DNA from: Candidatus Woesebacteria bacterium
GTDB lineage: Bacteria > Patescibacteriota > Microgenomatia > UBA8517
Length of the DNA stretch: 64,000 bases
Reading direction: 5' to 3'
NCBI GenBank assembly: GCA_016700095.1
Contig: CP065002.1
Coordinates: 643,667-707,666 of the forward strand
Below the pieces are notes generated by a model that did not search any database, was not told the DNA's origin, and worked only from the letters and a program-made list of their open reading frames with translations. The translations under genes were made by a program, and so were the position numbers. Positions 26,699 to 27,769 of the stretch are shown piece by piece. Every line of letters begins with the position of its first letter. Positions within the stretch are counted from its first letter, which is position 1.

Positions 26699-27769
26699 TT
26701 AAATAAACCTAACCTGCATGCCGTCTTTGGCTTTAGTTGAGAGTGACACCGTTTGTCCGGGAAATTTTGCACCATTCCCCCATATTTTTGCCTGTTTTAT
26801 CTCCTTGGCCATATCCGTACTCACATCATTAATAATTTGATGTAACGTTTGGTCGCGTGCAACAATTATCGGGTTATTAAAACTTGGCTCTTCTTCACGT
26901 CGAACCAGATAAACACGCACAAATGCCAGTTTCTGCCAGATAGCTTCTCTTAATGCTTCCAATCCAATTTCTTTCTCGGCACTGATATTAAGTGCATCCG
27001 GAAGTCTAGCTCGACTATCAACGTCGGATTTGTTTATTATCGTTAACGAAGGTAAGTATGCTCTATTGCTCGCAAATGCATCAATGAGTCTATCCATAGT
27101 CAGTTTTTCTTTGATTGTTACTTCGGCATTTCTGAAGCCGAATTCTTTTGCAACTTCTTTTATCGTTTCCAGGTTTAAGTCTTGTTTGATATTGTTTCTT
27201 AGTTGAATATTGCCTCGAGCTTTTTTCTCGACGGTAACTCTTGGTGGATTAATATCAAGTCGAATGCCATTTCCGTAAAGGGAAGTTTTTATTTTGGCAA
27301 CTTGCTCTAAATTATCAATGTCCGTAATAATTATTATTAGGTCGGCTCCACGGGCAACCGACAAAACTTCTTTGCCTCTACCTTTTCCTTTTTCTGCTCC
27401 GCCAATAATTCCTGGCACGTCAAGTATTTGGATGTTTGCGTTATTGTAATGCATCATTCCGGGAATGACTGTCAGTGTCGTAAACGCGTACGGAGCAATT
27501 TTGCTTTTAGCGTTTGTTAATTTAGTAAGTAAGGTAGATTTTCCGACGGATGGCGGACCGACTAAGACAACGGTTGCATCACCTTGTTTTTTGACGGCAT
27601 ACCCTCCACCACCTCCGCCTTTGGAAATTTGCTCTTTTGCAATTTCTTCCGATTTGAGCTTAGAAATTTTTGCTCTGAGTTTTCCAATATGGTGCTCGGT
27701 ACCTTTGTGGTACGGCGTCTCACGGATTTCCTTTTCGATTGCATCTAGCTGTTCTCTGATAGTAGCCAT
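26699..27769 (-). CDS. DRG-family GTPase (Obg/HflX superclass, DRG/Rbg1 type) with C-terminal TGS domain
   Basis: N-terminal [21 protein letters not shown] matches the DRG signature (TQKNKATEHHLGLLKAKLAKLR). G1 [9 protein letters not shown], G3 DVPGII, and a TGS-like C-terminus. Confidence 0.7.
   Translation of the reverse strand: [356 protein letters not shown]

What the first reader, a model, noticed from the sequence alone, without database searches (positions are those of the whole stretch)
26699..27769. Archaeo-eukaryotic-type DRG (developmentally regulated GTP-binding protein) GTPase with TGS domain in a bacterial context
The N-terminal helix [38 protein letters not shown] matches the DRG/Rbg1 signature, not bacterial Obg (Gly-rich Obg fold) or YchF. 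The G-domain block ...[12 protein letters not shown]...[39 protein letters not shown]... and the C-terminal TGS-like tail also match.

DRG proteins are, to my knowledge, characteristic of archaea and eukaryotes. Their presence here fits the archaeal-flavoured translation machinery reported for CPR-type bacteria, or indicates horizontal transfer. No obvious Obg is present in this window, but it may be encoded elsewhere.
Basis: partly seen in the sequence, partly recalled or inferred. Interest (0 to 1): 0.5.

Follow-up and report, generated by a model that had tools for sequence, protein, structure and literature searches.

The report
Archaeal-type DRG GTPase in a CPR bacterium
A Woesebacteria (candidate phyla radiation) genome encodes a complete DRG/Rbg-type ribosome GTPase, a family that reviews say is absent from bacteria; it belongs to a large clade spread across Microgenomates-group bacteria and, in relatives, sits alongside the normal bacterial Obg.

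Summary
ORF 26699-27769 (-) encodes a 356-aa protein that aligns end to end with yeast Rbg2/Rbg1 (E 3e-73 and 2.5e-70). Obg matches only the G domain (E ~1e-13). Pfam finds MMR_HSR1 plus the DRG-specific MMR_HSR1_Xtn (S5D2L). An AlphaFold model superposes on Rbg1 over about 366 columns (TM 0.77-0.81).

The context is bacterial. The window carries F0F1 atpB/atpA and an ABC-F protein. The identical protein is an NCBI Woesebacteria entry on a 1.27 Mb contig. In relatives the gene lies beside EF-P, bacterial S15, PNPase and Tgt.

Homologues occur in at least 75 Microgenomates-group genomes, including a closed one, and form one clan (72-100% NJ bootstrap). Every labelled relative outside that clan is archaeal or eukaryotic; the nearest is Hydrothermarchaeota-like at 49% identity.

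Canonical Obg lies on the same contig as DRG in two relatives, so DRG adds to Obg and does not replace it.

The best reading is one ancient archaea-to-Microgenomates transfer, inherited vertically since. The protein most likely acts as a DFRP-independent ribosome-associated GTPase. The deep tree is unresolved, so vertical descent is not excluded. I found no paper describing bacterial DRGs.

The parts
26699..27769 (-). DRG/Rbg-family GTPase gene, 356 codons plus stop
   Evidence: ORF list; full-length phmmer matches to Rbg2/Rbg1; Pfam MMR_HSR1 and MMR_HSR1_Xtn; identical to NCBI Woesebacteria protein P0001.
27623..27769 (-). N-terminal helix-turn-helix domain (residues 1-49) with apex lysine K22
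   Evidence: Model helices 4-17 and 25-49. Aligns with the Rbg1 N-terminus from residue 1. K22, T24 and G29 are invariant in 39 CPR homologues. The equivalent lysine at the HTH apex is the JMJD7 hydroxylation site in eukaryotic DRGs.
27269..27622 (-). Gly-rich linker (residues 50-57) and first part of the G domain (58-167): G1 G71PPSVGKS78, G2 T97/T98, G3 D117VPG120
   Evidence: Pfam MMR_HSR1 covers residues 66-161; the G1-G3 residues are invariant in alignment A1.
27068..27268 (-). S5D2L insertion domain (about residues 168-234)
   Evidence: Pfam MMR_HSR1_Xtn covers residues 186-282 at 82.5 bits against a cut-off of 35.2. Model elements E169-171, E178-182, E189-192, H200-209, E215-219 and H225-232. 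Superposes on Rbg1. Boundaries are approximate.
26924..27067 (-). Second part of the G domain (about residues 235-282): G4 N246KSD249, G5 S263AE
   Evidence: N246, K247, D249 and S263 are invariant in A1; sequence read directly.
26702..26923 (-). C-terminal TGS (beta-grasp) domain (about residues 283-356)
   Evidence: Pfam TGS covers residues 285-355 at 18.0 bits, below the cut-off of 22.2. The region aligns with the Rbg1/2 TGS domain. Model pLDDT here is 89-95. The fold match to Rbg1 covers the whole chain.
27776..27805 (-). Sigma-70-like promoter (TAAACA, 18 nt spacer, TATAAT) ending 6 nt before the ATG, with no Shine-Dalgarno; possibly a leaderless mRNA
   Evidence: Consensus scan, 10 of 12 matches; sequence. 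A TATAAT(TATACC) box a few bases before the ATG recurs in Woesebacteria-type loci. This is a consensus match only, not proof of function.

Best explanation
This is a genuine, intact DRG/Rbg-family GTPase with the full domain set (HTH, G domain with S5D2L insertion, TGS), encoded in the chromosome of a Woesebacteria bacterium (Microgenomates group, CPR). It belongs to a coherent clade present in many Microgenomates-group genomes. That clade was most probably acquired once from an archaeon by an early member of the group and has been inherited vertically since. By inference from yeast Rbg1/Rbg2, it binds the ribosome at the GTPase-associated centre in its GTP form, contacts the A-site tRNA through its accessory domains, and helps paused ribosomes resume elongation. 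Like archaeal DRGs it would work without a DFRP partner. It works beside the bacterial Obg rather than in its place. What is shown here: family identity, domain architecture, intact G motifs, bacterial context, distribution, and coexistence with Obg in relatives. What is inferred: the direction and age of the transfer, ribosome binding, and the elongation role.
For: Identity: full-length matches to Rbg2/Rbg1 at E 3e-73 and 2.5e-70, against Obg at E ~1e-13 over the G domain only. PF16897 scores 82.5 bits. The AF2 model (pLDDT 82.5) matches Rbg1 and Rbg2 at E 8e-34 to 4e-25 with TM 0.74-0.81; the next best is YchF at TM 0.47, and Obg reaches ~0.3. G1-G5 and K22 are invariant across 39 homologues.

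Bacterial context: atpA TIGR00962 scores 653 bits against a cut-off of 484; F0F1 subunit A is present; ABC-F NF000355 scores 414 against 380. The identical NCBI Woesebacteria protein lies on a 1.27 Mb contig, and the lineage is Bacteria; Patescibacteria group; Microgenomates group. In relatives, EF-P, bacterial S15, PNPase and bacterial Tgt lie next to the gene.

Distribution: 80 loci were recovered, and all but two Micrarchaeota loci are CPR-type by label or by clustering in the CPR clan, including the closed genome CP055308.1. The CPR clan has bootstrap support of 200/200, 65/100 and 215/300 in three data sets. Woesebacteria- and Shapirobacteria-labelled sequences fall in separate subclades.

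Archaeal affinity: the best representative outside the CPR clade is P0241 (Hydrothermarchaeota/Thermoplasmata) at 49% identity, and Methanothermobacter is at 43%. Mean identities are CPR-Archaea 41%, CPR-Eukarya 37% and Archaea-Archaea 57.5%. All labelled representatives outside the clan are archaeal.

Coexistence with Obg: L018 9838-10782 scores 346 bits on TIGR02729 (cut-off 280) and L025 2-892 scores 289 bits. Microgenomatia retain obgE.

Function model: Rbg1 binds at the GTPase-associated centre, S5D2L touches the A-site tRNA, and the GTPase, HTH and TGS domains are needed for function.
Against: The deep DRG tree is unresolved. Backbone branches are 0.00-0.03 substitutions per site, and only NJ with Kimura distances was available. 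The archaeal neighbour of the CPR clan changes between bootstrap replicates. Outgroup rooting failed through long-branch attraction, so the direction of transfer rests on parsimony of distribution and on similarity levels, not on a rooted tree. Whether the window's own genome has Obg was not testable. Most representatives carry no taxon label, so other bacterial lineages with DRG cannot be ruled out; a few loci are labelled Parcubacteria or Saccharibacteria, and those labels are of doubtful reliability. There are no biochemical data for any bacterial DRG. Binding to a 70S ribosome is extrapolated from 80S structures.
Confidence: 0.7

Rival explanations
1. Vertical relic. DRG was already present in the last bacterial common ancestor (or LUCA) beside Obg, was lost in all other bacteria, and survives only in Microgenomates-group CPR.
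For: The CPR sequences form a single clan that is not robustly nested inside any one archaeal phylum. Within the clan the subclades follow taxonomic labels, so the gene is old in this lineage. The gene's GC content (0.38 against ~0.35 for the window) shows no foreign signature.
Against: It requires loss in every other bacterial lineage, including the other CPR classes. The stem of the CPR clan is short (0.078, against terminal branches of 0.2-0.4). CPR-archaea identity reaches 49%, close to the 49-60% seen among archaeal phyla. Universal paralogues that split at the bacteria/archaea divide are usually separated by the longest internal branch. No labelled bacterial representative was found outside this clan.
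Confidence: 0.15
2. Same protein, different job. In Microgenomatia the DRG has been recruited to ribosome biogenesis, compensating for the assembly GTPases and factors this class has lost (Der, Era, RbfA), rather than acting on elongating ribosomes.
For: A 2025 survey reports that Microgenomatia keep obgE but lack der, era and rbfA. Obg-family members, including NOG1 and Obg, are assembly factors. Bacterial Obg and eukaryotic Rbg/Drg are reported to be functionally interchangeable in yeast and human cells.
Against: According to that survey, Dojkabacteria and WWE3 lost the same factors, yet no locus with those labels appeared among the DRG hits; the search was biased towards close relatives. 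Characterised DRGs are found on translating or stalled ribosomes, not on pre-ribosomes. No conserved linkage to ribosome-assembly genes was seen, and gene neighbourhood is variable.
Confidence: 0.12
3. Artefact. The gene comes from an archaeal contaminant contig or a chimeric assembly, not from a bacterium.
For: Several public records carrying close homologues have plainly wrong labels, for example L028 'Methanomicrobia archaeon' and many 'uncultured Gammaproteobacteria'. This shows that binning and labelling in this area is noisy.
Against: The gene lies in the middle of a 64 kb window that also holds bacterial F0F1 ATP synthase genes and an ABC-F gene, and the identical protein is on record from a 1.27 Mb contig. 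About 75 independent assemblies, including a closed 802 kb chromosome, carry it. Bacterial marker genes (EF-P, S15, PNPase, Tgt, Obg) lie within a few kb of it. Composition is uniform across the window.
Confidence: 0.01

Closest known systems
Eukaryotic DRG1/DRG2 (yeast Rbg1/Rbg2; PDB 4a9a, 7rr5, 7nrc)
   Same: Same four-part architecture: HTH, G domain with S5D2L insertion, and TGS. The proteins align along their whole length (E 1e-70 to 1e-73; about 35% identity in the structural alignment). The fold matches at TM 0.74-0.81. G1-G5 are conserved, with the GxPSVGKS P-loop and NKxD. The HTH apex lysine (K22) is conserved.
   Different: The gene is encoded in a bacterium. No DFRP partner (Tma46/Gir2) is expected, and none was looked for. 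The protein is about 10 residues shorter, with small deletions, for example between G4 and G5. Its ribosome would be 70S rather than 80S. It is present as a single copy in the window, rather than as a DRG1/DRG2 pair.
Archaeal DRG (aRbg; annotated 'OBG GTPase family GTP-binding protein')
   Same: These are the closest relatives outside the CPR clade: 49% identity to a Hydrothermarchaeota/Thermoplasmata-type protein and 43% to Methanothermobacter wolfeii. They share the same length class and the single-copy state; a DFRP partner is not established for archaea. The motif YHKGTEHH is shared with Micrarchaeota.
   Different: The CPR sequences form their own clan. They are more divergent from one another (mean 49%) than archaeal DRGs are (57.5%). 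They have a signature [13 protein letters not shown] N-terminal motif. They coexist with a bacterial Obg, which the recent family tree assigns to bacteria and organelles, not archaea.
Bacterial Obg/CgtA (ObgE)
   Same: Same Obg superfamily G domain (E ~1e-13 over residues 65-155). Both are ribosome-associated GTPases. Obg is reported to complement Rbg/Drg loss in yeast and human cells.
   Different: The window protein has no glycine-rich Obg-fold N-terminal domain and scores far below the Obg equivalog cut-offs (77-85 bits against 280-406). It has HTH, S5D2L and TGS domains instead. True Obg genes exist separately on the same contig in relatives.

Membership tests
DRG/Rbg family (Obg superfamily) | TRAFAC G domain with intact G1-G5 motifs | tested here: met
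   G71PPSVGKS78, T97/T98, D117VPG120, N246KSD249 and S263A are present and invariant in 39 homologues; PF01926 scores 79.8 bits against a cut-off of 21.9.
DRG/Rbg family (Obg superfamily) | N-terminal helix-turn-helix with a conserved apex lysine | tested here: met
   The protein aligns with Rbg1 from residue 1. The model has helices 4-17 and 25-49. K22 is invariant in the CPR alignment. The review describes the HTH and its apex lysine as DRG-specific.
DRG/Rbg family (Obg superfamily) | S5D2L domain inserted in the G domain (Pfam PF16897 MMR_HSR1_Xtn) | tested here: met
   PF16897 scores 82.5 bits against a cut-off of 35.2, covering residues 186-282 and profile positions 2-105 of 106; the region superposes on Rbg1.
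DRG/Rbg family (Obg superfamily) | C-terminal TGS domain | tested here: met
   Pfam TGS scores only 18.0 bits against a cut-off of 22.2. However, residues 283-349 align with the Rbg1/2 TGS domain, the model is confident there (pLDDT 89-95), the whole-chain fold matches Rbg1, and many close homologues carry PF02824.
DRG/Rbg family (Obg superfamily) | Closer over the full length to characterised DRGs than to any other Obg-superfamily branch | tested here: met
   Rbg2 and Rbg1 score 250 and 240 bits over the full length. Obg scores 53 bits, NOG1 39 bits and YchF 23-25 bits, all over the G domain only. Foldseek gives E 8e-34 for Rbg1 against 6e-9 for YchF.
DRG/Rbg family (Obg superfamily) | Ribosome association and (K+-stimulated) GTP hydrolysis | not testable with these tools
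   This is a biochemical property, known for yeast and human DRGs.
Eukaryotic DRG-DFRP module | Dedicated DFRP partner protein (Tma46/Gir2 type) | not tested
   No DFRP search was run. Neighbouring genes vary between loci and none recurs as an obvious partner. The review says a DFRP partner is not established for Archaea.
Bacterial Obg/CgtA | N-terminal glycine-rich Obg fold and a score above the equivalog cut-off | tested here: not met
   TIGR02729 scores 77 bits against a cut-off of 280, and NF008955 scores 85 against 406; both match residues 65-160 only. Real Obg from L018 scores 346 bits.
YchF/OLA1 | YchF G domain with coiled-coil insertion plus TGS; TIGR00092 | tested here: not met
   TIGR00092 scores 28.5 bits against a cut-off of 279; fold TM is 0.40-0.47 with rmsd of 9 A or more.

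The most novel reading that the evidence does not exclude
The Microgenomates DRG is a working component of a bacterial 70S translation system that operates alongside Obg. Either it is a relic of a pre-bacterial DRG/Obg pair, or it is an anciently captured archaeal factor that became fixed because it makes up for the class's loss of Der, Era and RbfA. On that reading DRG and Obg are not redundant in vivo, and this lineage is a natural experiment on what each one does.
Probability: 0.2. Interest if true: 0.7.

Novelty: new member of a known kind. Interest (0 to 1): 0.5.

Why it matters
Reviews of the DRG family state that it has homologues in Archaea 'though not in bacteria'. A 2026 family phylogeny still equates bacteria with Obg and archaea/eukaryotes with Rbg/Drg. 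A broad, vertically maintained bacterial DRG clade corrects that picture. It also supplies organisms in which DRG and Obg coexist, sometimes only 4-5 kb apart. That bears directly on the current claim that Obg and Rbg/Drg share one conserved function: if they were fully redundant, long-term retention of both in genomes of about 1 Mb would be unexpected. The clade also adds a translation-factor case to the list of archaea-to-CPR gene transfers, and it offers a DFRP-free DRG that could be tested on bacterial ribosomes. The limits are that automated annotation already labels some of these proteins 'ribosome-interacting GTPase 1', and that the protein itself is a canonical family member.

Tried and rejected
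1. The look-up of encoding contigs with the window protein and with P0001 found nothing on record, so I could not read the rest of the source genome. Obg presence in this particular genome therefore stays untested.

2. The afdb50 fold library was unavailable.

3. Outgroup rooting of the DRG tree used Obg G domains (153 columns). The outgroup attached to 1-5 long-branch CPR sequences in 146 of 200 replicates and never to the CPR stem. I rejected this as long-branch attraction.

4. The midpoint-rooted NJ tree of 220 sequences has backbone branches of 0.00-0.03, so I did not use it for deep relationships. An apparent 'CPR clade of 108' turned out to include archaeal representatives (Hydrothermarchaeota, Halovenus, Nanohaloarchaeota) once they were labelled, so only the 86-member clan is treated as CPR.

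5. Record labels such as 'uncultured Gammaproteobacteria', 'Methanomicrobia archaeon' (L028), 'Saccharibacteria' and 'Parcubacteria' could not be trusted. L028 carries TatC, PyrG and a Woesebacteria-type DRG, and L072 'Parcubacteria' sits among Shapirobacteria sequences.

6. Literature searches returned nothing: DRG plus Candidate Phyla Radiation; Microgenomates plus GTPase/archaeal/DRG; Candidate Phyla Radiation plus archaeal-type/translation/GTPase; K06944; and interdomain HGT plus CPR/DPANN/GTPase. COG1163 gave one unrelated paper.

The Obg calls rest on NCBIfam and PDB results.

8. No conserved operon partner was found for the DRG gene.

9. The third homologous-protein search was not used.
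Full report
OBSERVATION. A + strand ORF at 27465..27782 overlaps it. This ORF recurs in 26 related loci only because it is antisense to a conserved gene, so I treat it as an artefact of ORF listing.

WHAT THE PROTEIN IS. phmmer against all PDB chains gives end-to-end matches to yeast Rbg2 (7nrc_So, E 3.1e-73, query 6-349) and Rbg1 (4a9a_A, E 2.5e-70, query 1-349). The next hits are Obg proteins at E ~1e-13, and they cover only residues 62-157, which is the G domain. 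NOG1, Era, FeoB, YchF and Der are weaker still.

Pfam finds MMR_HSR1 (79.8 bits) and MMR_HSR1_Xtn (82.5 bits, cut-off 35.2). The latter is the S5D2L-containing extension found in DRG proteins. TGS reaches 18.0 bits, just under its cut-off of 22.2. No NCBIfam equivalog passes. The Obg models score 77-85 bits against cut-offs of 280-406 and match only the G domain. YchF scores 28.5 against 279.

An AlphaFold2 model was built on 39 homologues (mean pLDDT 82.5, pTM 0.78). The only low-confidence stretches are the Gly-rich linker (residues 48-57) and switch I (88-98). Foldseek against PDB returns Rbg1 (7rr5_R and 4a9a, E ~8e-34, TM 0.77-0.81 over ~366 columns) and Rbg2 (7nrc). YchF follows at E 6e-9 (TM 0.47) and Obg at TM ~0.3.

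The G motifs are intact and invariant across the homologue alignment: G71PPSVGKS78, T97/T98, D117VPG120, N246KSD249 and S263A. So is K22 at the tip of the HTH. This is the position that JMJD7 hydroxylates in eukaryotic DRGs. All sequence and fold features that define a DRG are therefore met. Obg and YchF membership are tested and not met.

IS THE CONTEXT BACTERIAL? Yes.
- The same window encodes F0F1 ATP synthase subunit A (60619-61350) and subunit alpha (62370-63782; TIGR00962 653 bits, cut-off 484).
- It also encodes an ABC-F ribosomal-protection-like protein (42697-44148; NF000355 414 bits, cut-off 380) and a LytR_C protein.
- The identical protein (P0001) is on record at NCBI as '50S ribosome-binding GTPase [Candidatus Woesebacteria bacterium]' from a 1,274,238-bp contig. 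The NCBI lineage is Bacteria; Patescibacteria group; Microgenomates group.
- Composition is even across the window, with GC 0.31-0.40 overall and 0.38 around the gene.

DISTRIBUTION. A scan of one genome per GTDB species found 94 stretches encoding relatives, and 80 loci were kept. The labelled ones are Woesebacteria, Shapirobacteria, Gottesmanbacteria, Microgenomates/Microgenomatus or 'Patescibacteria group', at 39-63% identity. They include the closed 802,554-bp chromosome CP055308.1. Two loci are Micrarchaeota. This scan uses peptide patterns taken from the query, so it is biased towards close relatives and gives only a lower bound.

Many TPA records labelled 'uncultured Gammaproteobacteria', and one labelled 'Methanomicrobia archaeon' (L028), are evidently mislabelled. 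L028 carries TatC, PyrG and a Woesebacteria-type DRG.

In these loci the DRG gene is flanked by unambiguous bacterial genes: EF-P (TIGR00038 224 bits, cut-off 186), bacterial S15, PNPase, queuine-type Tgt, CTP synthase and an MtaB-like methylthiotransferase. Gene order around DRG varies, and no candidate partner gene recurs.

OBG IS ALSO PRESENT IN RELATIVES. This picked out two full Obg proteins on DRG-bearing contigs. Curated profiles confirm both. L018 9838-10782 scores 346 bits on TIGR02729 (cut-off 280) and matches Obg crystal structures along its full length at E ~1e-72. L025 2-892 scores 289 bits. Both genes lie 4-5 kb from the DRG gene.

A 2025 survey of ribosome biogenesis factors reports that Microgenomatia retain obgE but lack der, era and rbfA. 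That paper does not mention DRG. So DRG is an addition to Obg in this lineage, not a substitute. The window itself holds no other TRAFAC GTPase, and the rest of its genome could not be read.

PHYLOGENETIC POSITION. An exhaustive phmmer search of 1.84 billion cluster representatives finds 339 representatives at E <= 1e-30, which is roughly the whole DRG family. The best representative outside the query's own group is P0241 (49% identity). It belongs to a cluster labelled Hydrothermarchaeota/Thermoplasmata. Other labelled representatives are Halovenus, Nanohaloarchaeota, Heimdallarchaeota, Micrarchaeota and an unclassified 'archaeon'. About 30 representatives group with yeast Rbg1/2. No labelled representative outside the CPR clan is bacterial.

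Mean identities over 353 aligned columns:
- CPR-CPR: 49%
- Archaea-Archaea: 57.5%
- Archaea-CPR: 41%
- Archaea-Eukarya: 46%
- CPR-Eukarya: 37%

Only neighbour-joining on Kimura distances was available. It recovers the CPR sequences as one clan in 200/200 replicates with a narrow archaeal sample, in 65/100 with all representatives, and in 215/300 with a labelled set of 125 sequences. The clan's nearest neighbour is always archaeal but changes between replicates. The backbone branches are near zero. Rooting with Obg G domains fails through long-branch attraction. Inside the clan, Woesebacteria-labelled sequences (including the window) and Shapirobacteria-labelled sequences form separate subclades. 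That pattern is what vertical descent within the Microgenomates group predicts.

ORIGIN. I favour a single ancient transfer from an archaeon into an early member of the Microgenomates group, with a probability of about 0.7 given that the protein is a DRG. The reasons are:
- the gene is unknown in other bacteria;
- the clan's stem is short (0.078);
- its similarity to archaeal DRGs (up to 49%) is not much below the inter-phylum range within Archaea.
The alternative is an ancestral bacterial DRG lost everywhere else. It is not excluded, because the tree cannot be rooted with the tools available. Contamination is excluded by the physical linkage to bacterial genes in dozens of independent assemblies.

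HOW IT MOST LIKELY WORKS (inferred). In yeast, Rbg1 binds translating ribosomes at the GTPase-associated centre through its G, HTH and TGS domains, and its S5D2L domain touches the A-site tRNA. GTPase activity, the HTH and the TGS are required for function. Rbg1/Rbg2 promote elongation through pause or stall sites, upstream of ribosome quality control. A 2026 preprint reports that bacterial Obg can replace Rbg/Drg in yeast and human cells.

The CPR protein keeps every domain and all catalytic motifs. The most likely mechanism is therefore GTP-dependent docking on the 70S GTPase centre with a contact to the A-site tRNA, stabilising or restarting paused ribosomes. It would have no DFRP partner; the review says one is not established for Archaea either. 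An alternative role in 50S/30S maturation is conceivable, given the loss of Der, Era and RbfA in this class, but it has no direct support.

KNOWN OR NEW? The 2021 DRG review says DRGs have homologues in Archaea 'though not in bacteria'. The 2026 phylogeny assigns Obg to bacteria and Rbg/Drg to archaea and eukaryotes. Full-text searches linking DRG, COG1163 or K06944 to CPR, Patescibacteria or Microgenomates found nothing relevant.

Automated annotation has already noticed the resemblance. NCBI calls these proteins '50S ribosome-binding GTPase' or 'GTP-binding protein', and one JGI entry reads 'ribosome-interacting GTPase 1'. The protein itself is a canonical family member. I therefore rate this as a new member of a known kind. 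What is unexpected is its taxonomic placement, which I could not find described in the literature, and its coexistence with Obg.

VERDICT. Interest is moderate at 0.5. It corrects a textbook-level statement about distribution and provides a natural Obg-plus-DRG system. However, the mechanism is extrapolated and the deep phylogeny is unresolved.

Noticed in passing
window 29202-31121 (+): A Kup-type K+ transporter gene is interrupted by one in-frame TGA at 29950-29952 ('RMSWF*VAMPALLLNYFGQGA'). The two halves match contiguous parts of PF02705 (profile positions 2-238 and 242-441). It could be a pseudogene, a sequencing error or a recoded stop.
   Followed up: partly
window 28598-28864, next to tRNA-Arg(TCG) at 28498-28570: A 30-bp tandem repeat of 8.9 copies at 93% identity (consensus TGATACTCGTTTTACTCGTAATAAGAACCT) lies immediately 3' of a tRNA gene. 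It generates spurious repetitive ORFs on both strands.
   Followed up: partly
window-wide; DRG upstream region 27770-27810; loci L004, L007, L010, L011, L019, L021, L027-L030: Shine-Dalgarno-like motifs are almost absent upstream of ORFs (2 of 55 in the window; 4 of 74 DRG genes in relatives). A TATAAT box often sits 5-12 nt before the start codon, and 'TATAATTATACC' is conserved just before the DRG ATG in Woesebacteria-type loci. This suggests leaderless or SD-independent initiation as a property of the lineage.
   Followed up: partly
L018 5001-6095 and 9838-10782; L025 2-892 and 5001-6119: In two Patescibacteria genomes the DRG gene and a canonical obg gene lie only 4-5 kb apart on the same contig.
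   Followed up: yes
L028 (CAZKZX010000087.1) and many CAY*/CAZ* loci: Public MAG records carrying Woesebacteria-type DRG, TatC and PyrG are labelled 'Methanomicrobia archaeon' or 'uncultured Gammaproteobacteria bacterium'. These taxonomic labels are unreliable.
   Followed up: partly
window 4937-13845, 28498-35162 and 60334-60408: There are 14 tRNA genes in 64 kb, including a run of five (Leu-CAG, Leu-GAG, Val, Phe, Gly) at 11437-13845.
   Followed up: no
window 8504-9607 (-); loci such as L021 7379-8776: A 367-465 aa protein, apparently secreted and with no Pfam match for the window copy, is transcribed divergently from DRG right next to it in about 30 related loci. In this window its homologue lies 18 kb away. 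This is conserved but dissolving synteny of unknown meaning.
   Followed up: no
representatives P0324, P0337, P0358, P0366, P0376, P0387 and others: A long-branch DRG subclade has a ~20-residue N-terminal extension and 32-37% identity to the window protein. Its only labelled member is an unclassified 'archaeon'.
   Followed up: partly
window 768-2303 (-): A 511-aa protein carries two Lamin Tail Domain (PF00932) matches at E 7e-34.
   Followed up: no
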